This document shows, in pieces, positions 17,286-54,983 of a stretch of 64,000 nucleotides of DNA; the stretch's first letter is position 1; each line of letters starts with the position of its first letter. The notes under the pieces are model-generated. The model was given only the letters and a program-made list of their open reading frames with translations. It ran no database searches and was not told the origin of the DNA. Location of the stretch: the IMG/VR virus record IMGVR_UViG_3300029186_000001; one strand, given 5' to 3'. The position numbers were made by a program, and so were the translations under genes. The stretch comes from a virus (lineage: Duplodnaviria; Heunggongvirae; Uroviricota; Caudoviricetes).

Positions 17286-20200
17286 ATGAACAAGCTATCT
17301 ATGGGGGTATTTCGCTGTTCAAGTGTCAGCGAAATATTGAAATACATTAGGGCAATAACATCTCACCGAGCGCCGATTAAATACGGCGTGGAAAAGGTGG
17401 AAGGCAAAAGCTATGACCGACTGCGCCGTGAGGCGAATCAGAAGGCGATAGATTTGCTTAATTCGCTGGTGGACGGCGCGACACTGACAGATGAACAGCG
17501 CCAGATCCTGGCTGGGTACACCGGTGAAGGCGGCATTGGCGGGTCCGTCTCCGAATATTACACACCAAAGCCGATCGCTGAAGGTGTCTGGGAGATCATG
17601 AAGCTCTACGGCGCGGACGTAGGTAACACTCTGGAACCATCGGCGGGCACCGGCGTTTTTAATGAGACAAAACCGGTTGGTACGGTGATGACCGCGACTG
17701 AGATCAGCAGTGTTTCCGGTCGTATAAACCAGCTGTTACATCCGGAAGACAGCGTACAGATTTCCCCGTTCGAACAACTGGCTGTAAGCACGCCTAACGA
17801 TTCATTTGACCATGTTGTGGGTAACGTTCCGTTCGGTGGTCGTGATAACACACGCAACATCGATAAGCCTTACGCAGAAGAAACGGACATGGGTTCTTAC
17901 TTCATGCTCCGCATGCTGGACAAGATAAAGCCAGGCGGATTCATGTGCGTGATTGTGCCGCCGTCCATTGTTTCAGGTTCAAACATGAAGCGGTTACGCC
18001 TGCGCCTATCACGGAAAGCTGAATTTCTTGGTGCCCACCGCTTGCCTACCGGTACTTTTGACGCAAACGGGACCAGTACGGTCGTTGACGTGGTGCTGAT
18101 GCGCAAACATCCGGCGGAGATGGCTGAGAAAATCCCCCTGGTGGATGAAGGCACTCTTGAATCGGCAAATGTGCTTTGGCCAACGTTTATTTCTGGCAAG
18201 TGGTTTGAAAAGGACGGCCGCCGGTTTGTTCATGGCACTCAGGAGAAGGGATTCCAGGGGCGTATTGAGGTTCGTGCCGACGGGCAGATTGATAACCAGG
18301 CTCTTAAAGCGAAGCTGATTCATCGTTTCGAAAGTCGTATCGACTGGTCTTTGCTCGATATGGCTGAACCGTCACCGACCGCAGATGTTGTTGATGAAGG
18401 GGAAATGCGCCTGATTAATGGCGTATGGCAAAAATATGCTGGTGGTCGCTGGATTGAAGCTGATGCCGGGAAGGAGCTGAAGATTGAGGTTGCCAGTTAT
18501 GGCGCGGATAGCTGGGAGGCTCTTCAGCGTAACCTGACTACAACAGAAGGCCGTCTCGGTATGACATTTACCCAGATGGCAAATGTCCGCGATAAGTACA
18601 CCACATCAATCAGCGACGATATGGTGCAGCTGGTGGACTGGATTAACAGCCAGCCTGAAAAATACCGTGAACGCTTGTATCGTGGGGCGATGATTGGCCG
18701 GATGTTAATTGAATATCAGGACATGAAGGCCGCCGGGCATAGTGCTGAACAAATCGAACAGCAGCGCCTTTCTCTGGTATCCCGTTTGCAGGCAGAGATT
18801 GACCGTTTTGGTAACCCCGGTCGCGGTCCGATAGCGAAATTATCGGGGAGCGGTGCGCGCGCCTGGTTTGCTTTCCGTGGTGCAATTAAGCTGGATGGCA
18901 CTATTTCTGACGAGCTGACAGGAAAACTGGTTACGCATGATTCCAGCGCCAGTTATGACTCCACCAGCTATCAGGACACCCTGCGTTATCTCTACAGTGA
19001 TCTCACTCGCGATCCAATCCAGCTCGATGATTTCCGCCTTGCGTTTACCGGCGAACTGCCAGCCAGTGATGACGAGTTGCTTAATTTATTGGCCAGCACC
19101 CCTGGCATTGCGGTTTCACCGTATGGCGGGATTGTTCCGTTCGCCCGCGCCACCAGCGGCGACATTAACGAGATAGTGGCTCCAAAGCAGGAATTCCTCG
19201 CCACGCTCCCCGACGGTCCAGTAAAGAACAACGTCCTTAATCAGCTGGCAGCGATCGAAGAGAAGCGCATCAAGACGCCAGCAGAGAATATCCGGTTTAA
19301 GCTCAATAGCCGTTGGTTCGACCGTTCCGTGATTCTGGAATTTTTGCAGGAAAACGGCTATCCGGATCTGCGCTATGTGCAGTCAGTGCAGCTGGAAGGC
19401 GACGAAATGGTTTCTGACACCTATCACGGTGGTGATGGTCTGTTCGTCGGGCACCGATACGGTGTCGTCCAGCGCAAGGATAAAGAAACAGGCGAGATCC
19501 GCTACGAGTGGGACCGTAAATCAGGTGAAAACGCGACCGGGTTCCCGGCACAGCTGGAAAAGTATCTCAATGGTGCGCGTATCGGTGGCAAAGATAGCGC
19601 GACGGCGAACGGCTACCGCGAGCAGATGGCACTGCTTGAGGACCAGTTCAATAAGTGGATCAAGACGCACGATCGCTACGATGAGCTGGTTGCCAAATAC
19701 AACGATGTGTTCAATAGCAATATCCCGTATGAACACTCTGGCGATCCGCTTGGGTTGAAGGGATTAAGCGGTAAGCGCCAGCCATTTGATTACCAGAATA
19801 GCGAGGTGCGCCGACTGTCCGAAGATGGGCGCGGCATCCTGGGCTTCGGCACCGGGCTGGGTAAAACCACGACCGCGCTGGCGCTTGAGGCGTTCAACTA
19901 TGAGAACGGTCGCTCCACCCGTACTGCGTATGTAGTGCCTAAATCAGTGCTGGAAAACTGGTATTACGAAGCAAAAGAATTCCTGAGTGAAGAGGCATTC
20001 AGTAACTACCTGTTCGTCGGTCTTGATGTGCTGATGGATGGCGATCAGATTCGCCAGGTGCCGGTGCTCGATGAGAACGGTAAACCTGTTCTTGGTACTG
20101 ATGGCACTCCAGTTATGCGCGATGCTCTTAAGCTGGCAGATGAAGCCACTATCACGGCGCGGATGAACGCGATCCCGCACTCAAATTACCGTGCAGTCGT

Positions 20201-23200
20201 GTTTACCAAAGAACAATACGCCCGCATTCCGCTACGTGATGACACCGTAGATGAGCATGCACAGGATATGCTTTATGACTTCGTTGCCGCCGGGCGCGTA
20301 GCCAGCGCAATGGACTCCGACTCCCACCGCAAAGAGGCCGCGCGTCGCCGGGTATTGTCGGAGTATTCAGATACCGGCACCGAAAAAGCAGAGAAGTATC
20401 CGTACTTTGAGGATATGGGCTTCGATAGTGTGATCGCTGACGAAGGTCACAACTACCGCAATAGCTATAAAAATGGTCGCGAAGCGTCACAACTGGCCTA
20501 TCTGCCCACCAGCGCGGTGGCGCAATCGGCGCGGGATATGGCAATTAAAAACGCGTACCTGATGAAAAAGAATGGTGGGCGCGGACCGGTTCTCCTGACT
20601 GCAACGCCAGTCGTTAACACCCCGATCGATGCATACAACATGCTTTCTCATGTTCTGCCGAAGGAATACTGGCAGAAGATGGGGATCTACAGTCCTGATG
20701 ACTTCGTAAAATTCTTCGGCAAGACCAGGCTGGAAACGGTACAGAAAATCAGCGGTGAAGTTGAAGAAAAAATGGCGCTGGTGGGCTTTGAAAACCTTGA
20801 TGCGCTGCGCGGCATATTCCATCGCTGGACAACGCTTAAAACGGCGGAAGACGTTAAGGATACCGTGGAGATCCCGGAACTGGACGAACACCAGCAGGAT
20901 GCACCACTTACGGAAGAACAACTGGCGGCGTATGAAGAATTGCGTCAGCAGGCGGAAGCGGCAGCCAAAGCCAACAATGGCGTAACGACCTCGGTCAATG
21001 AAGACGGCGTGATTGAGCACGAGAAAGCCCGTCCGATCTTCTCAATAATCAGGGATATGGACCGCGTATGTACTGACATGGACCTGTACTATCGCAGGAT
21101 CACCTATCGTTTCCTGCCGGAGTACGCCGATGCGGTGCAGCAGCTGGCGGACAGTTTGCCTAAACAAGCCACCAGCGAAGACGACGACAGTGATGATTCG
21201 ATCACGCAGCAATCGCAATACTCCCTGATAGATAAGGGCGAGTTTATTCAGTTGCAGGTACCGGAAGCATTTGAGCAGGAAGTGAATAAGCGCCTGGCCA
21301 AGTTTGGCATTGACGAACAGACCGTAACTCACCCCGTTACGCCCAAATACGCGAAGCTGATTGCCACGCTGAAGGAGTTTTTCCCGGAAGGTAAGCAAAT
21401 CATCTTCACCGATGAAAAAACGCAACACCAGAAGCTCAAGCGCATTATCTGCAATGCTCTTAACCTTGAACCTTCAAAGGTGGGGATCCTGAATGCTCAG
21501 ACGGTTGCCGAGGCAGGTAAAACCGGTAAGAAACTGAAAGCGGTTAAACCACCGAAAGAGCTACCGGATGAACCAACAGATGCACAGATAGCGAAATACA
21601 ACGAGCAAATGGCTCTGTATGACGCCTATATCGCGCAGCAAAATGAAATGTCGCTGGGTGGGCTGGAAAAGATTGCTGCCGACTTCCAGGAGGGCCGGAC
21701 TCCGATCATCATCTGCAACAAAAAGGCAGAGGTGGGTATCAACCTGCATCGAGGAACGACTGACATCCATCATCTGACGTTGCCATGGACACCAGCCAGT
21801 ATCGCACAGCGTAACGGTCGCGGTGCCCGAGTTGGTTCCAACCGTGCAAGCGTTCGCGTTCACTACTACTGCGGCAAGGGTTCTTTCGATGAATACCGAC
21901 TGAAGACGCTGAAGCGTAAAGCAGGCTGGATCTCCGATATCCTCCGCTCAGATAAGTCTGAAATGGAGAACGCCGACGCCAACGATATGATCGAAATGCA
22001 GATGTATACCGCTAAGGATGATGGCGAACGTCTGGCAATGATGCAGGTTCAAATGGATAAGGCGAAAGCCGCGCAACGCGCTCGCCAGAAAGAACAGGCT
22101 ACTATCGACCTTCAGAACTACATCAAGGCGCAGCACGCAGCTGGCGAGGATGTGGAGGTACTTACCGCTGAATTAGAGCGAAGCAAAGCGGAACTTGAAA
22201 AGACCACCGCCGAGGTAGCTAAATTCAAACAGGCGGCAATGGCCAAGGCAGCGGATAACGCAGACTGGAAGGCCCGCTGGGGGAGTGTCCATCACACAGA
22301 CCGTATGTTGTTAGCACAGTATCGCGCGTCGTTGAAAAGCGCCATTCAGCGCAAGGCTAATATCTCTCAAGCCATCTCCCGCTATGAGAAATTATTGAAC
22401 CGTACTCAGAAGGCCGCGACGGATATCAAACGCCTGCGCCCGCTGGTGGAGGATGCAATAAATAAAGGCATTCTGGATGTAGATCCTGACCTGGTTAACC
22501 ATGCGAGTGAGTTCCTTGTTATCGGCGATCGCTCATGGCGTGTAGGCCAATACTACGATTGTGCCGGTGATATCGTTCGCATTAAGTCGCTGGACTTCGA
22601 CAGCCAGCGCGCAGACGTGGAGATCATCTTTACCTTCAAAGGCACCAAATCGGGTAACTGGGATGTGAAGACGCTGGATAAACAGGTGGATGTAACTCCC
22701 GATGAAGATGCTGTTATGCAGAAAATCAGTGGTGGCGTCTCCATCGCCGGGATTAACGACATCATTTCCTGTGACGATTTCTACCGTTTCCAGCAGCGCG
22801 GCATGATCAAAATCACTGACTCATACGGCGTTCAGACTACAGAGTCAGGCTATAGCATTGATTTTGTTGGCACCTATACGGACCCACTGAAGCATGCGGT
22901 TTACCCGGATCGCCGTGACGGCGCGCTGAAGTCGTCAATTGCAAAATGGGTGCTTGGTATGATGTCGGAAGGGAATAACCGCCAGATCCGTTCGGCAGAA
23001 ACATTCCTGGTTGAATTGTTTGGCTCCAATTATGGCGATGTAATCGCGTCATACGGAGATACGCTATCCCCTGAAGCAATTCAGGAGAAAATAGCGGATG
23101 CGATCGCCAGAATGCCGGAAAAAACAAGCCAGGGGTCTACTCGTAACGGGGATTCTGAACTTGAAGTCACCAATGCCATTTTCGGTACCAATGAGTTCCG

Positions 23201-24053
23201 GGCGTCAGATTATGAGATCACCACAGCACAGTTTGGCACCATTGGCATTTACAGCAATAAAGACGAGATCAAGCAGGCAATGGACGCAGCAAGTGCGCGC
23301 ATTGCAGCAGAACGGAAAGCCAATCTGAATCATGCAGTCGCCGCGCTGACTCAATCGTGGGTAACAGCAATCAGGGAGGCCGCCACCACAGGAAAAATCA
23401 CACCGGCAATTGCGGATGTCGTAAACGACGGCTCTAAATTTATGGATGCCTATCAAATGGATGCGGTGAAGTTGCCATCAGCCTATGGTCAACTCAGCTA
23501 TCGCATGACCTACAACCTGGTATCAATGTTTTCCGACCTTGCCATCCTTGGGCTGGTGGATCTTAACGAGGTTACGCCGGAATTGCTCAGCATGCGCAAG
23601 AATCATGTGGAGATATTGCAGAGAGTTAACACGGTTCTTGCCGGACGCACCGATGAAGAGAAACAGGCCGACGCTGATCGGATAAACCTGGCCCTTGGCA
23701 ACATCACGGAGGAAGAAATTGCCGCCAGAAACGAGAAACAAGAAGAGTTATCATCAATACAGGGTGATGCCACCAGCATAGCTCAGTCTCTTGGTCTGAA
23801 TTATCGCGTATCCACCGCCGACCTGAAGATGATGTACGCACCAAAATTCGCCGCTGGCGAGGTATTTGGGCTTCAGGAAGCCTCAGGCATGAAAGGCGTT
23901 CTTTTCCGTGCGAAAGACGCAATCAAGGCGAAATTCGGCGCTCGCTGGCTGCCAGCGAAGGCGAAGAACAGCGATTTCCCGGGTAACTGGTGGATTATCG
24001 AGACAAAACACAACGTGGCGGACGTTCTGGCCGTCATCCAACAATACGCATAA
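17286..24053 (+). CDS. darB: DarB antirestriction protein (N6-adenine methyltransferase-like domain fused to DExH helicase)
   Basis: 2255-aa ORF; VGNVPFGG methyltransferase-like motif near N-terminus and VIADEGHNYRN DExH motif mid-protein. Confidence 0.85.
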   Translation: MNKLSMGVFRCSSVSEILKYIRAITSHRAPIKYGVEKVEGKSYDRLRREANQKAIDLLNSLVDGATLTDEQRQILAGYTGEGGIGGSVSEYYTPKPIAEGVWEIMKLYGADVGNTLEPSAGTGVFNETKPVGTVMTATEISSVSGRINQLLHPEDSVQISPFEQLAVSTPNDSFDHVVGNVPFGGRDNTRNIDKPYAEETDMGSYFMLRMLDKIKPGGFMCVIVPPSIVSGSNMKRLRLRLSRKAEFLGAHRLPTGTFDANGTSTVVDVVLMRKHPAEMAEKIPLVDEGTLESANVLWPTFISGKWFEKDGRRFVHGTQEKGFQGRIEVRADGQIDNQALKAKLIHRFESRIDWSLLDMAEPSPTADVVDEGEMRLINGVWQKYAGGRWIEADAGKELKIEVASYGADSWEALQRNLTTTEGRLGMTFTQMANVRDKYTTSISDDMVQLVDWINSQPEKYRERLYRGAMIGRMLIEYQDMKAAGHSAEQIEQQRLSLVSRLQAEIDRFGNPGRGPIAKLSGSGARAWFAFRGAIKLDGTISDELTGKLVTHDSSASYDSTSYQDTLRYLYSDLTRDPIQLDDFRLAFTGELPASDDELLNLLASTPGIAVSPYGGIVPFARATSGDINEIVAPKQEFLATLPDGPVKNNVLNQLAAIEEKRIKTPAENIRFKLNSRWFDRSVILEFLQENGYPDLRYVQSVQLEGDEMVSDTYHGGDGLFVGHRYGVVQRKDKETGEIRYEWDRKSGENATGFPAQLEKYLNGARIGGKDSATANGYREQMALLEDQFNKWIKTHDRYDELVAKYNDVFNSNIPYEHSGDPLGLKGLSGKRQPFDYQNSEVRRLSEDGRGILGFGTGLGKTTTALALEAFNYENGRSTRTAYVVPKSVLENWYYEAKEFLSEEAFSNYLFVGLDVLMDGDQIRQVPVLDENGKPVLGTDGTPVMRDALKLADEATITARMNAIPHSNYRAVVFTKEQYARIPLRDDTVDEHAQDMLYDFVAAGRVASAMDSDSHRKEAARRRVLSEYSDTGTEKAEKYPYFEDMGFDSVIADEGHNYRNSYKNGREASQLAYLPTSAVAQSARDMAIKNAYLMKKNGGRGPVLLTATPVVNTPIDAYNMLSHVLPKEYWQKMGIYSPDDFVKFFGKTRLETVQKISGEVEEKMALVGFENLDALRGIFHRWTTLKTAEDVKDTVEIPELDEHQQDAPLTEEQLAAYEELRQQAEAAAKANNGVTTSVNEDGVIEHEKARPIFSIIRDMDRVCTDMDLYYRRITYRFLPEYADAVQQLADSLPKQATSEDDDSDDSITQQSQYSLIDKGEFIQLQVPEAFEQEVNKRLAKFGIDEQTVTHPVTPKYAKLIATLKEFFPEGKQIIFTDEKTQHQKLKRIICNALNLEPSKVGILNAQTVAEAGKTGKKLKAVKPPKELPDEPTDAQIAKYNEQMALYDAYIAQQNEMSLGGLEKIAADFQEGRTPIIICNKKAEVGINLHRGTTDIHHLTLPWTPASIAQRNGRGARVGSNRASVRVHYYCGKGSFDEYRLKTLKRKAGWISDILRSDKSEMENADANDMIEMQMYTAKDDGERLAMMQVQMDKAKAAQRARQKEQATIDLQNYIKAQHAAGEDVEVLTAELERSKAELEKTTAEVAKFKQAAMAKAADNADWKARWGSVHHTDRMLLAQYRASLKSAIQRKANISQAISRYEKLLNRTQKAATDIKRLRPLVEDAINKGILDVDPDLVNHASEFLVIGDRSWRVGQYYDCAGDIVRIKSLDFDSQRADVEIIFTFKGTKSGNWDVKTLDKQVDVTPDEDAVMQKISGGVSIAGINDIISCDDFYRFQQRGMIKITDSYGVQTTESGYSIDFVGTYTDPLKHAVYPDRRDGALKSSIAKWVLGMMSEGNNRQIRSAETFLVELFGSNYGDVIASYGDTLSPEAIQEKIADAIARMPEKTSQGSTRNGDSELEVTNAIFGTNEFRASDYEITTAQFGTIGIYSNKDEIKQAMDAASARIAAERKANLNHAVAALTQSWVTAIREAATTGKITPAIADVVNDGSKFMDAYQMDAVKLPSAYGQLSYRMTYNLVSMFSDLAILGLVDLNEVTPELLSMRKNHVEILQRVNTVLAGRTDEEKQADADRINLALGNITEEEIAARNEKQEELSSIQGDATSIAQSLGLNYRVSTADLKMMYAPKFAAGEVFGLQEASGMKGVLFRAKDAIKAKFGARWLPAKAKNSDFPGNWWIIETKHNVADVLAVIQQYA

Positions 24054-24086: not shown

Positions 24087-24527
24087 ATGGCCACACTATC
24101 TGATACAATAAAACCGAATAAAACATATCTTGAGGCGGTACTGCGTACGGCATTGTTAGGAAAGACAGAAGACGAATACGTTGATTTCTTCCTGTCAGGG
24201 CTACGCGGGCGATTACTGAAAAATCCCCGCCTGTACCGCAGCTATGGCCCATACTGGCCGGAAATTAAAAAATTATTACTGGAGCGCGGTTATGGTAATT
24301 TCGGTCGTCTCGTTGACCGTGACGTTCGCAAAATTTACCGTTATGACCGCCCGGCGCTGACACTCATAGCCGCGACGCTCTACAGCCAGGAGCGTTTTGA
24401 TAATGGTCAGATATACTCAGCCTGGCATTTACTGCCAGTGCCTGAAGAGGTTGACGACCAGGACTATGAGTTTGAGTCTTACGATTTGGAAGTTGAAGCC
24501 TTAGCACAGGCTGGAGAGAAAACTTGA
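24087..24527 (+). CDS. ulx: Ulx-like protein
   Basis: 146-aa ORF immediately downstream of darB, as in P1. Confidence 0.55.
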   Translation: MATLSDTIKPNKTYLEAVLRTALLGKTEDEYVDFFLSGLRGRLLKNPRLYRSYGPYWPEIKKLLLERGYGNFGRLVDRDVRKIYRYDRPALTLIAATLYSQERFDNGQIYSAWHLLPVPEEVDDQDYEFESYDLEVEALAQAGEKT

Positions 24528-24772
24528 AAAAGCGATACTACACAGTAAAGCATGGGACGCTACGAGCATTACAAGAGTTTGCTGACAAGCATAACGTTGA
24601 GGTGCGCAGGGAAGGGGGAAGTAAAGCTCTGCGCATGTACCGTCCGGACGGAAAATGGCGGACGGTCGTCGATTTCAAAACTAACAGCGTTCCCCAGGGC
24701 GTCCGCGATCGGGCATTCGAGGAATGGGAGCAGATCATCATAGATAACGCATTGCTCCTGAATGCTGATTAA
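24524..24772 (+). CDS. Hypothetical small protein (Lxc position)
   Basis: 82-aa ORF overlapping ulx stop; positional correspondence to P1 lxc only. Confidence 0.45.
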   Translation: MKKRYYTVKHGTLRALQEFADKHNVEVRREGGSKALRMYRPDGKWRTVVDFKTNSVPQGVRDRAFEEWEQIIIDNALLLNAD

Positions 24773-24777
24773 GAACT

Positions 24778-24804
24778 CTCCGGCCTAGGGAGATTAGGCC
24801 GGAG
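24778..24804. terminator. GC-rich hairpin between convergent genes
   Basis: ctccggcct-agggagatt-aggccggag; no clear U-tract. Confidence 0.4.
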
Positions 24805-24813
24805 ATAAATATA

Positions 24814-26118
24814 CTATATAAACTTAGATATAATATCGTGAATCTGTTGTAGCGGGATTTCTTCCATCTTACTCTTAATAAGAGAGCGGTTAGATGCTGT
24901 CAGTGAAGGCCATTTTGTTTTCCAGGCTAGATATGCTCGCCATGAGTAGCCTGTTTCGTAAGGTTTATTCATATAAGTCATTGAGTGTTCAACCGCATGT
25001 ATGTATTTTTTCTCAAAGTTGGTTCCTTTTACTTCAAATAAACTACCGAAATAAATAAGCCATTTTGCCAGGTGTTCATACTGCTCCCATGCGCCAGACT
25101 CTTTAGTAAGATCTATTTTTTTATCTATTATATCACAAAAAACATTTAATACCTTTTCATCATTCCAGCTATATCCAGATGATGAAATGGAGGAAATGAT
25201 ATGATAAAAAGAATCCTCTAACTTCAAGAACTCTATTTTATACTCTCTTCCGTTTTTTATTACCGATTTGATTGAGTGCCTCAATTTGTCTTTTATTTTT
25301 TTTGCTTCTGGAATTTTCTTGTTAAGTTTTCTAAAGAAATCAGACACCTCTGTTTTATCTATAACCCTAATCCCAAAGCAGGAAAAATAGTAATCTTTAA
25401 TAGGTTGCAATAGTTTCCCTCGGGAAATAAGGAAAATATTGGAGGACATTACGTTGTCCCGTGAAAATACCTTATATTCATTTATAATCGCCTTGAGGTT
25501 CGCGTCACTTAGAGAATAGCCAAGAATAACAATAGTGTTTTCATGTAGAACTGTGCTTAGTTTATTTGAAAAGTAAGAATTACCATTTATAAATCTGAAA
25601 TAATCCTCGCTAGTAACAACCATATCTGATGGGGAGTCTATAGAGCCGTGAACATGGTAGACTTTAACCTCACAATTATATTTTGGAATTGGCAGGCCGG
25701 GGGTGATTGTACACGTTCGATTCTCTCCAGCCAGTTTTTCTGCTAACTTGTCATAATTTGTCGTAATTACTTTAAATGTGTTTTCTTTGAAAAAGTCTTG
25801 AATATATTCAATTGATGGATCAAGTTCGATTGAGGCTATGATTTTCTCAATCTCCTGGTAAATATTTTTCCCCGAAAGTATAAATTTTAGTGCAATAACC
25901 TGAGCAGCCTCTTCAAGGCTAAGGTCTTTTGCTTTTCCATCAGGAAATAATTCCTCTTTGAGTGAGTCACCATCCTTCAATAAACCGCACAGTTGCTCCA
26001 ATAAAGATTGCCAACTTGGGGCTTTATCATCAGAAACAGCCTTTGAAAATCCAGTGCCTGTAAGAAAGCACAGCCTATGTGTAGCTGCTGCATAGGCAAT
26101 TTCTATATACTCGCTCAT
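24814..26118 (-). CDS. SIR2-like (sirtuin/NADase-type) domain protein with uncharacterised C-terminal helical domain; candidate antiphage effector
   Basis: 434-aa ORF; motifs FLTGTGFS, TTNYD, VYHVHGS and LGYSLSD in the N-terminal ~270 aa; GGAG RBS; markedly AT-rich relative to flanks. Confidence 0.8.
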   Translation of the reverse strand: MSEYIEIAYAAATHRLCFLTGTGFSKAVSDDKAPSWQSLLEQLCGLLKDGDSLKEELFPDGKAKDLSLEEAAQVIALKFILSGKNIYQEIEKIIASIELDPSIEYIQDFFKENTFKVITTNYDKLAEKLAGENRTCTITPGLPIPKYNCEVKVYHVHGSIDSPSDMVVTSEDYFRFINGNSYFSNKLSTVLHENTIVILGYSLSDANLKAIINEYKVFSRDNVMSSNIFLISRGKLLQPIKDYYFSCFGIRVIDKTEVSDFFRKLNKKIPEAKKIKDKLRHSIKSVIKNGREYKIEFLKLEDSFYHIISSISSSGYSWNDEKVLNVFCDIIDKKIDLTKESGAWEQYEHLAKWLIYFGSLFEVKGTNFEKKYIHAVEHSMTYMNKPYETGYSWRAYLAWKTKWPSLTASNRSLIKSKMEEIPLQQIHDIISKFI

Positions 26119-26174
26119 TACTTACTCCATTTACTTATAGTTCTACGGAGAAGTATACCCTAATGCATTGACGT

Positions 26175-26815
26175 TTATAGATAATTTCCTTTTCCTGTTA
26201 ATACTCCCTTAGGCACCTGTTTTTGTGCCAGCGTTTGGGTTCCGCGAATTATGTTAATCAGAGGGCTTAGTAACGATGGTTCCTGGCGTGCCTCAACTTC
26301 TCCAGCCATTGCCCTGATGTAGTCTGCGCTGGCAACGTTGTTGTATTCCGTCGCAAAGCAACAGAGTAACGTCAGAACATGCTCTGTCGTTATTTCGCTC
26401 CAGTTGATGTTGAAAAATTCATCGCCTTTTTTATCGTGTTCGGAATCGAAGATGCTTTGGTGGAGGATGTATTTGCCGGATTCCTTGCGCGGTAACTTGA
26501 TTGCTTTCTGGCGTTCCAGCTCCTTATAAATCTGCATGGCCTCAATTAGTACCGGCCTGCCGTTCATGAAGGGATCGCGCAACCTTACACGCTGGCCAAC
26601 TCGACCAGTAATAAAGCTGTTTTCCTCTTCCACCAGCACGATAAAACCCTTTTCCTCTTTTTCTCGCAATTCGCGCAGCAGCTGGAGTTCCATATCGCGG
26701 CGGCGTTCAGGGTAGCTGGTCCGCTCAGCCATTATCAGCTCGTTGTTGATCCATGCAGCAGTCATTGACGCCGGTTTACCGACGCTCATCGAAACAACGC
26801 ATATTTTCTTATCCA
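26175..26815 (-). CDS. Hypothetical protein, co-oriented upstream of the SIR2-like gene (mat position in P1)
   Basis: 213-aa ORF from ATG at 26815; GC content like the phage backbone. Confidence 0.5.
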
Positions 26816-27004
26816 TAGCGCCCCTACAAAAAAGAAAAGCCACCAGCGGCGGCTTAGCAATACAACTGAAGGTAGCGCCCGGTACTCAGACTGTGCCGTC
26901 CATGGAATATTTGAAAAGGGATCCATCCGTACCGGGCATGTGATGATTCTGACTGAAGTCACTTGTCAGTTGTCAATTATTTCAGATTAAAAATAATATA
27001 TTTA

Positions 27005-27565
27005 TTAGTGCATGATGTTTGCCATCTCATAGGCGTCAGCCAGCAACTCCATCTCTGACTTGTTCAGCAAGGTGAATTCTTTCTTGCCTCCAACCACACC
27101 ATCGGCATGAACAGGGACCAGCCAGGGGTATTTTTCTCTTACTTCAGCCGGTGCTGCATGCTGGTGGTGCCATCTACAAAGTGGCAACTGCTTTTTGTGA
27201 CAACCCGGCGCGGTACGACCGGAGATATGGTGCAGAGACACCTCTTCAGATATTACTCCATGCATATAGCAGGCAATGCAGGGGAGAGCGCCAAGAGCAT
27301 TGGCTATGCGCCGTTCCTCCGCCGTCGGTGTTCGTCCCTTCAAGCCACGAGATTTTATTTTTACCGCACTTTTCCGCGTTTTGCTGGCTGGTGGGCGCTC
27401 TTTCTGTTTAGCGATACGGCGGTCGATAGAATCCCGCATTTTCTGATATTGCGATTCTCGCCAGGCGGGGTCAGCCAACTTTTCCCGTTGCCGAGCGATC
27501 GCTCGTTCTCTGGCTGCCTTCTGCCACTCGCGGCGCTGTTCAAGTTTTTGTTCGATTGTTTTCAT
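27005..27565 (-). CDS. ref: Ref recombination-enhancement HNH endonuclease
   Basis: 186-aa ORF; Cys/His-rich HNH-type region CIACYMHG...HHISG...CRWHHQH; position next to cre. Confidence 0.75.
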   Translation of the reverse strand: MKTIEQKLEQRREWQKAARERAIARQREKLADPAWRESQYQKMRDSIDRRIAKQKERPPASKTRKSAVKIKSRGLKGRTPTAEERRIANALGALPCIACYMHGVISEEVSLHHISGRTAPGCHKKQLPLCRWHHQHAAPAEVREKYPWLVPVHADGVVGGKKEFTLLNKSEMELLADAYEMANIMH

Positions 27566-27812: not shown

Positions 27813-28124
27813 TTATTTCATCATGGAAGCTGTTAACGCTTTGGATCTTGCTGAACTGATTGAAAGGGCATTGTTTACCTTACCCAGGAGTTCGCCAAAT
27901 TCCACCATCACTCTAGTAAGCCCGCGCCGCGCTTCCTCCTCCGTTGCATTCATCACAAAATGTTCAGCACTCCGCATGCTTTTAACGGGGAACGCAACAG
28001 ATATCGAGTCGATATCAGGCATCCTATCGCTCAACTTTACGGTGACAATGACAGATGGTGACTGAATTTGAGAGCTTACAGACAGCACCACATATTTTCC
28101 GTCTATTTTGAAATCCTTCCGCAT
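27813..28124 (-). CDS. Hypothetical protein downstream of cre (Cra position)
   Basis: 103-aa ORF between cre and ref. Confidence 0.4.
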   Translation of the reverse strand: MRKDFKIDGKYVVLSVSSQIQSPSVIVTVKLSDRMPDIDSISVAFPVKSMRSAEHFVMNATEEEARRGLTRVMVEFGELLGKVNNALSISSARSKALTASMMK

Positions 28125-28174: not shown

Positions 28175-29206
28175 CTAATCGCCATCTTCCAGCAGGCGCA
28201 CCATTGCCCCCGTTTCACTATCCAGGTTACGAATGTAGTTCATGACAATATTTACGTTGGTCCAGCCACCAGCTTGCATGATCTCCGGTATTGAAACTCC
28301 GGCGCGGGCCATATCTCGCGCGGCTCCGACACGGGCACTGTGTCCAGACCAGGCCAGGTACCTCTGGCCAGAGTCATCCTTAGCCCCGTAAATCAATCGG
28401 TGAGTTGCTTCAAAAATCCCTTCCAGGGCGCGAGTTGATAGCTGGCTGGTGGCAGATGGCGCGGCAACACCATTTTTTCTGACACGGCAAAACAAGTAGT
28501 TATTCGGATCATCAGCCACACCAGAGACAGAAATCCATCGCTCAACCAGTTTAGTTACCCCCAGACTAAGTGCCTTCTCTACACCAGCGGTGCTAACCAG
28601 CGTTTTCGTTCTGCCAATATGGATTAACATTCTCCCACCGTCAGTACGTGAGATATCTTTAACTCTGATCCTAGAAATTTCGGCTATACGTAACAGGGTG
28701 TTATAAGCAATCCCCAGAAATGCCAGATTACGTATATCCTGGCAGCGATCGCTATTTTCCATGAGTGAACGAACCTGGTCGAAATCAGTGCGTTCGAACG
28801 CCAGCGCCTGTTTTGCACGCTCACCGGCATCAACGTTTTCTTTTCGGATCCGTCGCATGACCAGTGAAACAGCATTGCTGTCACTTGGTCGTGGCAGCCC
28901 GGACCGACGATGAAGCATATTTAGCTGGCCCAAATGTTGCTGGATAGTTTTCACTGCCAGACCGCGCGCCTGAAGATATAGAAGATAATCGCGAACATCT
29001 TCAGGTTCTGCGGGAAACCATTTCCGGTTATTCAACTTGCACCATGCCGCCCACGATCGGCAAACGGACAGAAGCATTTTCCAGGTATGCTCAGAAAACG
29101 CCTGGCGATCCCTGAACATGTCCATCAGGTTCTTGCGAACCTCATCACTCGTTGCATCGACCGGTAATGCAGGCAAATTTTGGTGTACGGTCAGTAAATT
29201 GGACAT
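28175..29206 (-). CDS. cre: Cre site-specific tyrosine recombinase
   Basis: 343-aa ORF MSNLLTVHQNLPALPVDATSDEVRKNLMDMFRDRQAFSEHTWKMLLSVCRSWAAWCKLNN..., recognised as P1 Cre. Confidence 0.98.
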   Translation of the reverse strand: MSNLLTVHQNLPALPVDATSDEVRKNLMDMFRDRQAFSEHTWKMLLSVCRSWAAWCKLNNRKWFPAEPEDVRDYLLYLQARGLAVKTIQQHLGQLNMLHRRSGLPRPSDSNAVSLVMRRIRKENVDAGERAKQALAFERTDFDQVRSLMENSDRCQDIRNLAFLGIAYNTLLRIAEISRIRVKDISRTDGGRMLIHIGRTKTLVSTAGVEKALSLGVTKLVERWISVSGVADDPNNYLFCRVRKNGVAAPSATSQLSTRALEGIFEATHRLIYGAKDDSGQRYLAWSGHSARVGAARDMARAGVSIPEIMQAGGWTNVNIVMNYIRNLDSETGAMVRLLEDGD

Positions 29207-50618: not shown

Positions 50619-51836
50619 ATGCCAACTGAATATGCTCGCGACAACCTTGGTCGCTATCAGACTGATGGATTAAGTGCAAAAGACTTTAACAAGGTCTTCG
50701 ATCTTATCCGTAAACAGCAGCGTCAGAATCGGCGAAACGCGCGACGTACACTCACCCCAAGGATTATGGGGATGCGTAACCGCGAACTTGAGGCATTCCT
50801 CAGCCTTGGGAAAAAGAAAGATGGCACCTACTTTACGCCCGAAGATATACGCAGTTTCAACACCTCAAGGCAGGCTCATAAAACCAAATTCAAGAGCACG
50901 GTACCCGGCATTACCTATGCTCAGCTGGTGGCGCAGTCCACCAGCATTGATATAAAACGCGCTAACAACAAGGTTTCTGATGGCACAGGGATCAAAGCCG
51001 CGACATTCCTCGGGCTAAAACACAACCTTGCATTGATATCTGTTAATGCCTCGGATGAGTCGGTCCACCAGCATCACCGTGTCAGAATTCGATTTGAGGA
51101 ATGGGATAAAGCCGTTGAGGAAATTGCTGAAGACGGTGCGAAAAAAGCCCGAATCGCTGCCGATCTCTGCAAGGGCCGGGTATCTTTCGACTGTGATTGT
51201 GGACGCCATCAATACTGGTATCGTTATATGGCCACGGCTGGTAACTATGCTGTCGCGCCGCCAAAAGAGTATGCATTCCCCAAAATCCGCAACCCTGATC
51301 TGACTGGTGTGGCTTGCAAACATGTTTTGCACGCTATGACGCGTTTTCAGTCTCCCACATGGCACAAGGCCATCATTATTGCCCTGGAAAAAGCAGCTGA
51401 ACAGGTAGCCTTCGGCGATGACAAGCGGAAGACAACAACCTATTTCAAAGGCGAACTGGCTAAATCGCTCGCGCGCAACCGGACAACAACGACGGATCAG
51501 GCTAAAGCGGCGCGTGAGTATGAGTTATATCTGAAATCTCAGGATGCATTAGGCAAAAAACTACGCGCCAAAGATAGCGCCACGGACAACGTTCGCCGGT
51601 TGTTAAAAAAAGCTCGCACCACGGCAAACAGGAAGAATGCCGAACTAAAAGCCTCGCGGGTGAGGGAAGCCCAGGCTCGCGCTGAAGCCGACGCTCTCAA
51701 AAAAGCCCTGCAAACGCAGGCGAACAACCTCATAAAGTTTTTCATGAGTCAGGGAATGGACAAGGCCGCTGCCACCGCGCAGGCGCGAAGCATTCTTGAG
51801 ACACAAATTAACGAAGCCCGTAAACGGAAAGGATAA
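50619..51836 (+). CDS. Hypothetical protein with Cys/His cluster
   Basis: 405-aa ORF; CDCGRHQYWYRYMATAGNYAVAPP...CKHVLHAM. Confidence 0.5.
   Translation: MPTEYARDNLGRYQTDGLSAKDFNKVFDLIRKQQRQNRRNARRTLTPRIMGMRNRELEAFLSLGKKKDGTYFTPEDIRSFNTSRQAHKTKFKSTVPGITYAQLVAQSTSIDIKRANNKVSDGTGIKAATFLGLKHNLALISVNASDESVHQHHRVRIRFEEWDKAVEEIAEDGAKKARIAADLCKGRVSFDCDCGRHQYWYRYMATAGNYAVAPPKEYAFPKIRNPDLTGVACKHVLHAMTRFQSPTWHKAIIIALEKAAEQVAFGDDKRKTTTYFKGELAKSLARNRTTTTDQAKAAREYELYLKSQDALGKKLRAKDSATDNVRRLLKKARTTANRKNAELKASRVREAQARAEADALKKALQTQANNLIKFFMSQGMDKAAATAQARSILETQINEARKRKG

Positions 51837-54983
<3,147 letters not shown>

What the first reader, a model, noticed from the sequence alone, without database searches (positions are those of the whole stretch)
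26175..26815. Co-oriented upstream ORF: partner of the SIR2-like gene or backbone mat gene?
A 213-aa ORF ends 57 bp upstream of the SIR2-like gene on the same strand, so the two could form an operon. Its GC content resembles the phage backbone rather than the island, and it occupies the position I would expect for P1 mat. It has no TIR-like or other signalling-domain motifs that I can recognise. Whether the system is one gene or two is unresolved.
Basis: inference. Interest (0 to 1): 0.45.

Follow-up and report, generated by a model that had tools for sequence, protein, structure and literature searches.

The report
P1 mat gene, not SIR2 partner
The ORF is the phage P1 backbone gene mat (particle maturation), present in about 700 P1-like plasmids whatever lies next to it, so the low-GC SIR2 gene beside it is a one-gene insert and the finding is ordinary.

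Summary
It is P1 mat: 96% amino-acid identity to P1 Mat residues 38-250, with ref, the C1 operator and the early/late mat promoters conserved upstream.

Mat is backbone. It occurs in 694 PLSDB plasmids and 694 of 5,426 complete E. coli genomes. The SIR2 cassette occurs in only 66 and 69 of these (about 130 genomes counting a second allele).

Downstream of mat, other P1-like elements carry type III R-M, RelA/SpoT, a YaaC-family pair, DUF2971, EAL, or nothing (RCS47). The SIR2 insert is a 1,402-bp block of 35.8% GC, bounded exactly by the stop codons of mat and lxc.

Homologues of the SIR2 protein in about 70 other species have no recurrent neighbour and no Mat-like gene nearby. So the SIR2 system is one gene. 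Read-through transcription from mat remains possible, because no terminator separates them.

Two side results are new. Mat's core is predicted to fold like a large-terminase nuclease domain but lacks the strand-1 catalytic Asp. In distant relatives mat heads the baseplate/tail operon 26-25-7-24-6-5.

The parts
26175..26816 (-). mat coding sequence (213 aa, ATG start): a P1 backbone gene for particle maturation.
   Evidence: It is 96% identical in protein to P1 Mat residues 38-250. It matches PHROG 1837 over its full length from this Met. Most homologues are 213 aa, and distant ones also begin at the MDKKI-equivalent position.
26817..26926 (-). Leader of mat. It corresponds to the 37-codon N-terminal extension annotated in P1 (ATG at 26926-26924). 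Here it is out of frame, because one G of a G-run is deleted just 5' of the 26816 ATG.
   Evidence: DNA alignment with P1, translation of P1 mat, and the separate 58-aa ORF at 26786-26962.
26827..26855 (-). Terminator-like hairpin (AAGCCGCC-GCU-GGUGGCUU) followed by a U-run. It lies inside the mat leader, 11 nt upstream of the ATG.
   Evidence: Terminator scan. The RNA fold gives -11.6 kcal/mol, z -2.2. The sequence is identical in P1.
26946..27014 (-). mat control region, mapped from the P1 annotation: C1 operator Omat (27014-26997), Pmat -35 TTGACA (26976-26971), late-promoter -22 box (26964-26956), and the shared -10 CAGAAT (26951-26946).
   Evidence: P1 feature table, projected through the gap-free part of alignment A1 and read in the sequence. 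The function of these elements is taken from the P1 record and was not tested here.
26119..26174 (-). 56-nt spacer between the mat stop codon and the SIR2 ATG. It belongs to the insert and carries a GGAG Shine-Dalgarno sequence 8 nt before the ATG. It has no terminator.
   Evidence: Homology to P1 and RCS47 stops at the mat stop codon. GC is 0.357. It has no significant structure, z -0.8. It is 55 of 56 nt identical in plasmids carrying a SIR2 allele that is only 59% identical in protein.
24814..26118 (-). SIR2_2-domain gene (434 aa). It is the only gene of the insert.
   Evidence: Pfam PF13289, E 1.6e-23. PADLOC gives only partial SIR2-domain hits: PDC-S25, ThsA, LmuA, Dsr2. More than 600 full-length homologues of about 434 aa were found.
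24777..24805 (-). Strong hairpin with an 11-bp stem between the convergent SIR2 and lxc genes. It is probably a two-way terminator.
   Evidence: Terminator scan. The fold gives -20.8 kcal/mol, z -4.5, with 0 of 200 shuffles folding as well.
24773..26174 (.). The whole low-GC insert (1,402 bp, GC 0.358). It occupies the mat-lxc intergenic site, which holds res/mod in P1 and only 39 bp in RCS47.
   Evidence: Boundaries from comparison with P1 and RCS47. GC. The identical cassette is found in 66 plasmids and 69 E. coli genomes.
27005..27565 (-). ref (RecA-dependent nuclease), the conserved upstream neighbour of mat.
   Evidence: Pfam PF16786, E 9.6e-51. A Ref-like gene is also directly upstream of the distant mat homologues in L094 and L095.
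24524..24772 (+). lxc (bof), the backbone gene on the other side of the insert. It converges on the SIR2 gene.
   Evidence: PHROG 2160 over its full length and the P1 annotation.
50277..54977 (+). Homologues of P1 genes 26-25-7-24-6-5 (baseplate core, tail terminator, hub, needle). In distant relatives this block lies immediately downstream of mat.
   Evidence: tblastn of the genes that follow mat homologues in L093-L096 against the window, E 1e-12 to 1e-129. P1 gene names. Roles from PMC9024508.

Best explanation
The ORF is mat, the 'maturation control' gene of phage P1. It is part of the conserved phage backbone and not a component of the neighbouring SIR2 module.

Shown:
- It is 96% identical to P1 Mat.
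- It keeps P1's upstream context: ref, the C1 operator, and the overlapping sigma-70 and late promoters.
- It is present in roughly ten times more P1-like elements than the SIR2 cassette, next to many different cargos or none.
- The SIR2 gene sits in a 1.4-kb low-GC cassette inserted exactly between the stop codons of mat and lxc. The cassette has its own ribosome-binding site and a strong downstream hairpin.
- The SIR2 protein family has no conserved neighbour elsewhere.

So the SIR2 module is one gene.

Inferred, for how Mat works (about 0.4 confidence): Mat is a non-virion morphogenesis factor. Residues 1-165 are predicted to fold like the nuclease (RNase H-like) domain of large terminases. 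The family lacks the strand-1 catalytic Asp and keeps only an acidic pair (E63/E64) after strand 4. I therefore expect it to bind DNA or a packaging or tail-assembly partner rather than to cut DNA.

Its C-terminal 45 residues are predicted to be disordered and are mosaic between elements. In distant relatives mat is the first, translationally coupled gene of the 26-25-7-24-6-5 baseplate/tail-terminator operon. This fits a role late in making infectious particles.

From the P1 record: mat is repressed by C1 in the lysogen and transcribed both early and late in lytic growth.
For: Identity and context:
- Sequence identity.
- Regulatory context taken from the P1 record and identical in the window.

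Co-occurrence:
- mat is in 694 plasmid records, against 66 for SIR2.
- mat is in 694 of 5,426 E. coli genomes. The full cassette is in 69, and about 62 more carry a second allele.
- 19 phage records have mat and none has the SIR2 gene.

Other cargos at the same site:
- res/mod, convergent with mat
- none
- a YaaC-family pair
- DUF2971
- EAL, with or without type III R-M
- RelA/SpoT

Insert boundaries and GC.

SIR2 homologues elsewhere:
- In 71 loci from about 70 species, the 135 flanking ORFs fall into 119 clusters, and none recurs beyond a single genus.
- There are 0 Mat-profile hits among 2,742 ORFs.
- Four inspected contexts have unrelated upstream genes.

Fold:
- The AF2 model has pLDDT 79.5 and pTM 0.71, with the core near 90.
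- Foldseek against BFVD likewise returns terminases.

Conserved and absent acidic residues.

Synteny with genes 26 to 5 and with ref.

Essentiality: amber mutants are reported essential, and CRISPRi knock-down gave EOP 0.28 (PMC10695390).
Against: - The genes are co-oriented, 56 nt apart, with no terminator-like structure between them. Co-transcription cannot be excluded, and a regulatory coupling of SIR2 expression to the mat promoters is possible.
- The 3' end of mat co-segregates with cargo type. This could in principle reflect function rather than linkage.
- The mechanism for Mat rests on a predicted structure only. No sequence-level link to terminases was found: hhalign against PacB gave probability 0.2%, and Pfam and PDB sequence searches were empty.
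- Synteny with tail genes, rather than packaging genes, does not point clearly to a terminase-related role.
- The primary literature on mat (Lehnherr et al. 2001; Lobocka et al. 2004) could not be read here.
Confidence: 0.9

Rival explanations
1. Mat and the SIR2 protein form a two-gene defence system, with Mat as sensor or regulator and SIR2 as NAD-consuming effector.
For: The genes are co-oriented, 56 nt apart, with no intervening terminator. Many SIR2 defence systems are multi-gene (general knowledge).
Against: - Mat is present in about 10 times more elements than the SIR2 gene, with unrelated cargo or none.
- The GC break and the end of homology fall at the mat stop codon.
- No Mat-like ORF lies near 71 SIR2 homologues, and those homologues have no recurrent neighbour.
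- Mat matches no PADLOC family.
- Distant Mat homologues sit in tail and baseplate operons without any SIR2 gene.
Confidence: 0.02
2. mat and the SIR2 gene are one transcription unit without functional partnership. SIR2 is read through from the C1-repressed and late mat promoters, so its expression follows the phage programme. It may also be transcribed from a weak promoter that overlaps the end of mat.
For: - There is no terminator-like hairpin between the genes, while a strong one follows SIR2.
- The consensus scan found no sigma-70-like site in the spacer on this strand.
- By eye, TTAACA-16 nt-TATAAA overlaps the mat stop codon (26201-26174).
- The 56-nt leader is 55 of 56 nt identical between two SIR2 alleles that are 59% identical in protein. 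This suggests the leader is constrained or was repeatedly used as a recombination arm.
Against: - A defence gene is expected to be expressed in the lysogen, where Pmat is repressed by C1 according to the P1 annotation.
- The by-eye promoter lacks the conserved final T of the -10 hexamer.
- Nothing here measures RNA.
Confidence: 0.4
3. Mat is an active nuclease that processes DNA during packaging, either as a second terminase-type or RuvC-type cutter or as a debranching enzyme.
For: - An invariant acidic pair sits at the end of strand 4, and D/N residues at positions 124 and 138 are partly conserved.
- The historical name is 'maturation'.
Against: - No acidic residue is conserved on strand 1; S, T or C occupy that position in 56 of 60 family members.
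- No acidic residue is conserved on the helix after the last core strand.
- By eye, PacB has its own complete nuclease motifs.
- In relatives mat is linked to baseplate and tail genes, not to pacA/pacB.
Confidence: 0.12
4. Mat is a regulator of late gene expression ('maturation control') rather than an assembly or packaging factor.
For: The product name in the P1 record is 'maturation control', and the gene has unusual dual early and late promoter control. Mat is not mentioned in the main text of the P1 virion proteomics study.
Against: - The model has no helix-turn-helix or other DNA-binding regulator fold; the fold matches are nuclease-like or ASKHA-like.
- Translational coupling to a T4 gp53-like baseplate gene in relatives is typical of assembly factors.
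Confidence: 0.12

Closest known systems
Phage P1 Mat (AAQ13981.1, 'maturation control'; PHROG 1837)
   Same: - 204 of 213 residues are identical.
- It has the same position after ref, and the same operator and promoter block.
- The gene product is the same length as in most P1-like plasmids.
   Different: - The P1 record annotates 37 extra N-terminal codons. In the window these are out of frame because of a 1-nt deletion, and they contain a terminator-like hairpin. The 213-aa form is probably the real protein in P1 too.
- The last 33 residues carry 6 of the 9 substitutions, as part of a mosaic 3' end.
- In P1 the next gene (res) converges on mat. Here the next gene is co-oriented.
Nuclease domain of large terminases (T4 gp17, SPP1 G2P, Sf6 gp2, P22 gp2, HCMV UL89; RNase H-like fold)
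   Different: - Mat is a stand-alone 213-aa protein with no ATPase domain.
- It has no conserved Asp on strand 1 and no conserved acid on the final helix.
- No sequence or profile similarity to terminases was detected.
- The gene is linked to ref and, in relatives, to baseplate and tail genes rather than to terminase genes.
EcoP1I res/mod cargo of P1 and other cargos at the mat-lxc site
   Same: The SIR2 cassette occupies the same intergenic site between the backbone genes mat and lxc. In other P1-like elements this site holds type III R-M, RelA/SpoT (CapRel-type), a YaaC-family pair, DUF2971 or EAL genes.
   Different: It is a single 434-aa SIR2_2-domain gene, co-oriented with mat, in a 1.4-kb cassette of 35.8% GC.
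SIR2-domain anti-phage proteins (ThsA, DSR1/DSR2, LmuA-SIR2, PADLOC candidate PDC-S25)
   Same: The neighbouring gene shares the SIR2_2 domain with these proteins (residues about 100-250).
   Different: - Only the domain matches. All full-length scores are far below the family cut-offs (Dsr2 30.6 bits against 1,400).
- The C-terminal 190 residues match nothing known.
- The family has no conserved partner gene.
- Defence activity was not tested here.

Membership tests
P1 Mat / PHROG 1837 (maturation control protein) | Full-length sequence similarity to P1 Mat | tested here: met
   204 of 213 residues identical, E 3e-158. PHROG 1837 positions 1-212 of 212 matched, E 3.8e-113. DNA is 92.6% identical to P1.
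P1 Mat / PHROG 1837 (maturation control protein) | Backbone synteny: downstream of ref, preceded by operator Omat and the overlapping Pmat and LPmat promoters | tested here: met
   The P1 feature table was projected on alignment A1. The -35, -22 and -10 boxes and the aligned part of Omat are identical in the window.
P1 Mat / PHROG 1837 (maturation control protein) | Presence independent of the neighbouring accessory cargo | tested here: met
   694 plasmids carry mat against 66 with SIR2. At least seven different cargo states were seen, including none.
P1 Mat / PHROG 1837 (maturation control protein) | Required for production of infectious particles | not testable with these tools
   Literature only: listed as essential from amber mutants, and CRISPRi gave EOP 0.28 (PMC10695390).
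Partner gene of a multi-gene SIR2 defence system | Co-occurs with the SIR2 gene across unrelated genomes | tested here: not met
   0 Mat-profile hits in 2,742 ORFs around 71 SIR2 homologues, and no recurrent neighbour family. Upstream genes in four contexts are unrelated to Mat and to each other.
Partner gene of a multi-gene SIR2 defence system | Lies inside the mobile insert (shared composition and boundaries) | tested here: not met
   GC is 0.480 for mat against 0.358 for the insert. Homology to cargo-free RCS47 and to P1 runs to the mat stop codon.
Partner gene of a multi-gene SIR2 defence system | Matches a known defence-associated protein family | tested here: not met
   PADLOC gave 0 families. 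Pfam and NCBIfam gave 0 families.
Partner gene of a multi-gene SIR2 defence system | Co-transcribed with the effector | tested here: inconclusive
   There is no terminator-like site between the genes, and the scan found no consensus promoter in the spacer. No RNA data are available.
Large-terminase nuclease domain (RNase H-like) | Fold: five-stranded mixed sheet with flanking helices and a beta-hairpin, as in TerL C-terminal domains | tested here: met
Large-terminase nuclease domain (RNase H-like) | Catalytic carboxylates on strand 1, at the end of strand 4, and on the C-terminal helix | tested here: not met
   Across 60 family members only positions 63 and 64 (end of strand 4) are acidic. Strand 1 has S, T or C, and the helix 144-157 has no conserved acid. 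Positions were assigned from the predicted secondary structure, not from a superposition.
Large-terminase nuclease domain (RNase H-like) | Detectable sequence or profile homology to terminases | tested here: not met
   hhalign of the family profile against PacB gave probability 0.2%. No Pfam terminase family matched in 60 members. The PDB profile search gave no terminase chain among its five matches, all at E 0.68 or worse.
Large-terminase nuclease domain (RNase H-like) | Fused to, or acting with, a packaging ATPase | not tested
   Mat is a stand-alone protein. Interaction with PacA/PacB or the portal was not examined.
Single-gene SIR2_2 module (the neighbour) | SIR2_2 domain plus a conserved length of about 434 aa, with no conserved partner | tested here: met
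   The insert has room for only one gene. Anti-phage activity was not tested.

The most novel reading that the evidence does not exclude
Mat is a stand-alone, catalytically degenerate descendant of a terminase-type nuclease domain. It has been recruited as a non-virion assembly factor. Ancestrally it was the first gene of the baseplate-core/tail-terminator operon (mat-26-25-7-24-6-5).

It would act by binding DNA ends, the portal or a tail component late in morphogenesis, through its core and its variable disordered tail. This would give a first molecular handle on the old P1 'particle maturation' phenotype.
Probability: 0.3. Interest if true: 0.45.

Novelty: already known. Interest (0 to 1): 0.2.

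Why it matters
For the scan, this removes a false lead. The SIR2 module in this P1-like element should be treated, cloned and tested as a single gene with its 56-nt leader. Mat should not be counted as a defence component.

It also documents the mat-lxc junction as a precise cargo site whose left recombination arm reaches into the 3' end of mat.

The side results are of modest interest to P1 specialists:
- a corrected mat start codon
- a terminase-nuclease-like predicted fold that lacks the canonical strand-1 catalytic Asp
- an ancestral link to the baseplate/tail operon

Tried and rejected
**Searches on Mat that found nothing**
- Pfam, NCBIfam and PADLOC scans of Mat gave no family.
- A Pfam scan of 60 family members gave only scattered chance hits.
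- A PDB sequence-profile search gave nothing better than E 0.68.
- hhalign of the Mat family against PacB gave no signal.

**Structure**
- The afdb50 fold library was not available.

**Neighbour candidates**
- The 207-aa and 179-aa ORFs upstream of SIR2 homologues in Pseudoalteromonas and Halomonas looked like possible Mat counterparts by size and position. They are unrelated to Mat and to each other.
- The 392-aa Mat-SIR2 fusion protein P0335 looked like a Rosetta-stone link. It is Mat 1-81 joined to a SIR2 variant that lacks its first ~125 residues, so it is a deletion derivative.

**Promoter**
- The promoter scan found no consensus site for SIR2 in the spacer. The by-eye candidate TTAACA-16-TATAAA is weak and stays a guess.

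**Literature**
- Lehnherr et al. 2001 and Lobocka et al. 2004 are not held.
- The P1 virion paper does not mention mat.
- Searches for the P1 hotspot with SIR2, and for PDC-S25, gave nothing specific.

Full report
**1. The observation**

The window is a P1-like phage-plasmid. Around the finding the gene order is as follows:
- darB, 17286-24053 (+)
- ulx, 24087-24527 (+)
- lxc, 24524-24772 (+)
- a SIR2_2-domain gene, 24814-26118 (-)
- the ORF in question (-)
- ref, 27005-27565 (-)
- c8, 27813-28124 (-)
- cre, 28175-29206 (-)

The ORF runs from a GTG at 26843 (222 aa).

The gap to the SIR2 ATG is 56 nt. GC is 0.480 for the ORF, 0.354 for the SIR2 gene and 0.357 for the spacer. The whole window is 0.485.

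**2. Identity**

The ORF is 92-96% identical in DNA to mat of P1, P7, RCS47 and SJ46. The protein matches P1 Mat residues 38-250 at 204 of 213 positions. It covers PHROG 1837 end to end, starting at the ATG-26816 methionine.

The upstream region is almost base-for-base that of P1. The P1 record places there the C1 operator Omat, a sigma-70 -35 box, and a late promoter's -22 box that shares the same -10. All of these elements are intact in the window at 27014-26946.

P1's record annotates 37 further N-terminal codons. In the window a one-base deletion in a G-run puts that stretch out of frame. The same stretch encodes a terminator-like hairpin with a U-run. In addition, nearly all homologues, including those only 20-40% identical, start at the MDKKI-equivalent position. 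The 213-aa protein is therefore most likely the real product in P1 as well.

**3. Backbone gene or SIR2 partner**

*Co-occurrence.*
- mat is in 694 PLSDB plasmid records, and the SIR2 gene is in 66.
- Among 5,426 complete E. coli genomes, 694 carry mat and 69 carry the full cassette.
- About 62 further genomes match only the first ~140 nt of the cassette. In the record inspected this is a second SIR2 allele, 59% identical in protein, sitting at the same place.
- In the phage collection, 19 records have mat and none has the SIR2 gene.

*Cargo seen downstream of mat in other elements.*
- Convergent res/mod, in P1 and in pDETEC74.
- A RelA/SpoT-family gene, in 673R5 and SJ46.
- A YaaC-family gene plus a 169-aa gene.
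- A convergent DUF2971 gene.
- An EAL-domain gene, with or without type III R-M.
- Nothing in RCS47, where only 39 bp separate the mat and lxc stop codons.

*Insert boundaries.* Homology to P1 and RCS47 ends at the mat stop codon and resumes at the lxc stop codon. The insert is therefore 24773-26174, which is 1,402 bp at 35.8% GC. It holds one ORF with a GGAG ribosome-binding site, followed by a strong hairpin of -20.8 kcal/mol, z -4.5. There is no room for a second gene.

*The SIR2 protein family elsewhere.* More than 600 homologues were found, nearly all 431-437 aa and 55-61% identical. They come from Gamma-, Beta- and Alphaproteobacteria and beyond.
- In four inspected contexts the upstream gene is an integrase, a LysR regulator, or an unrelated small ORF.
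- In 71 loci from the one-genome-per-species collection, the 135 immediately flanking ORFs fall into 119 clusters. None recurs beyond a single genus.
- A Mat family profile finds nothing among 2,742 ORFs.
- Mat matches no PADLOC family.

Mat is therefore not a component of the SIR2 module, and the module is one gene.

**4. What remains of the 'operon' idea**

The genes are co-oriented and no terminator-like structure lies between them. The spacer has no significant fold, z -0.8. Transcripts from the mat promoters would therefore be expected to run into SIR2 and stop at the hairpin at 24805-24777.

The consensus scan finds no sigma-70 site for SIR2. By eye, TTAACA-16 nt-TATAAA overlaps the mat stop codon, but it is weak.

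The 56-nt leader is 55 of 56 nt identical in plasmids carrying the second SIR2 allele, and divergence begins a few codons into the ORF. The leader is either constrained or serves as a recombination arm. Whether SIR2 is expressed in the lysogen, where the P1 record says C1 represses Pmat, needs RNA data.

**5. What Mat is**

Sequence methods say nothing about Mat. A profile search of 1.8 billion representative proteins finds 141 clusters of proteins of about 200-230 aa.

*Synteny.* Four distant members lie on 22-88-kb phage-like contigs, and each is the first gene of a co-directional cluster. In three of the four, the mat stop codon overlaps the next gene's start codon.
- The following genes are homologues of window 50277-54977, which corresponds to P1 genes 26, 25, 7, 24, 6 and 5.
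- Gonzales et al. assign gp26 to the T4 gp53-like baseplate core, gp24 to the tail terminator, gp6 to the hub and gp5 to the needle (PMC9024508).
- A Ref-like gene lies directly upstream of mat in two of the four loci.

The arrangement ref-mat-26-25-7-24-6-5 is therefore probably ancestral. P1 has separated mat from the tail genes.

*Predicted fold.* With the deeper alignment, AlphaFold2 gives a confident core: pLDDT about 90 for residues 1-165, and pTM 0.71 for the whole protein. The tail, residues 166-213, is of low confidence.
- RuvC and ASKHA proteins score below 8.3.
- Foldseek against viral models also returns terminases.

*Catalytic residues.* Across 60 family members, only the pair at positions 63 and 64 (end of strand 4) is acidic. 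Strand 1 carries S, T or C where these nucleases have their first catalytic Asp. The helix after the last core strand has no conserved acid.

I infer a terminase-nuclease-like domain that has lost canonical catalysis and acts as a non-structural factor in late morphogenesis. This is inference from a predicted model. Positions were assigned from the secondary structure and not from a superposition.

*Phenotype in the literature.* mat is recorded as essential from amber mutants, while CRISPRi knock-down reduced plating only to 0.28 (PMC10695390).

**6. Comparison and novelty**

The feature is a member of the P1 Mat family on every criterion that could be tested. It is not a member of any defence family. 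It resembles terminase nuclease domains in predicted fold only, and it fails the catalytic-residue and sequence-homology criteria, so it should not be filed as a terminase nuclease.

The finding as posed is already explained and ordinary. The predicted fold, the ancestral synteny and the corrected start codon are small additions to what is known about mat.

**7. Verdict**

The ORF is the backbone gene mat (confidence 0.9 or higher). The SIR2 module is a single-gene cassette. Co-transcription is possible but untested. Interest is low, at 0.2.

Noticed in passing
window 26817-26926 (-); P1 AF234172 2716-2826: The 250-aa Mat annotated in P1 probably starts 37 codons too early. In the window that extension is frameshifted by a 1-nt deletion, and it contains a terminator-like hairpin. 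Distant homologues all start at the internal Met.
   Followed up: partly
window 26827-26855 (-): An intrinsic-terminator-like hairpin (-11.6 kcal/mol) with a U-run lies between the mat promoters and the mat ATG, and it is conserved in P1. It could end ref transcripts or attenuate mat expression.
   Followed up: partly
window 26175-26310 (-), and loci L004-L006 and L102-L106: The last ~45 codons of mat are mosaic. The point where similarity to the window breaks co-segregates with cargo type, in 2 of 2 records for each class:
- nt ~510 with EAL
- nt ~524 with DUF2971
- nt ~582 with the YaaC-family pair
- full length at ~92% identity with type III R-M

Cargo exchange seems to use mat itself as one recombination arm.
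   Followed up: partly
window 26119-26174 (-); L099 2501-2556; L003 6643-6698: Two SIR2 alleles, 59% identical in protein (434 and 435 aa), occupy the same site in different P1-like plasmids. They share a 56-nt leader that is 55 of 56 nt identical.
   Followed up: partly
window 26438-26470; L101 701-733: A 33-nt stretch of mat is identical to a spacer in the chromosomal type I-E CRISPR array (next to iap and cas2e) of E. coli strain E04. This is a record of past immunity against a P1-like element.
   Followed up: partly
protein P0335: A 392-aa predicted protein joins Mat residues 1-81 to a SIR2 variant that lacks its first ~125 residues. It is a deletion derivative seen on 4 contigs, not evidence of functional fusion.
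   Followed up: partly
L100 (E. coli APEC17 chromosome, 3558861-3570262): The same c1-cre-ref-mat-SIR2-lxc-darB segment lies in a chromosome record. mat has 14 chromosomal places among complete E. coli genomes, so some P1-like elements are integrated.
   Followed up: no
L007-L009 5001-6311: An E. coli chromosomal homologue of the SIR2 protein (56% identity) sits just after an integrase gene at what looks like a prophage end. A second phage lineage may therefore carry the same single-gene module.
   Followed up: no
window 24814-25400 (-), SIR2 residues ~245-434: The C-terminal ~190 residues of the SIR2 protein are well conserved across the family (for example W344, Q346, Y347, W353, W393) but match no Pfam or PADLOC model. 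This may be an unknown sensor or regulatory domain.
   Followed up: no
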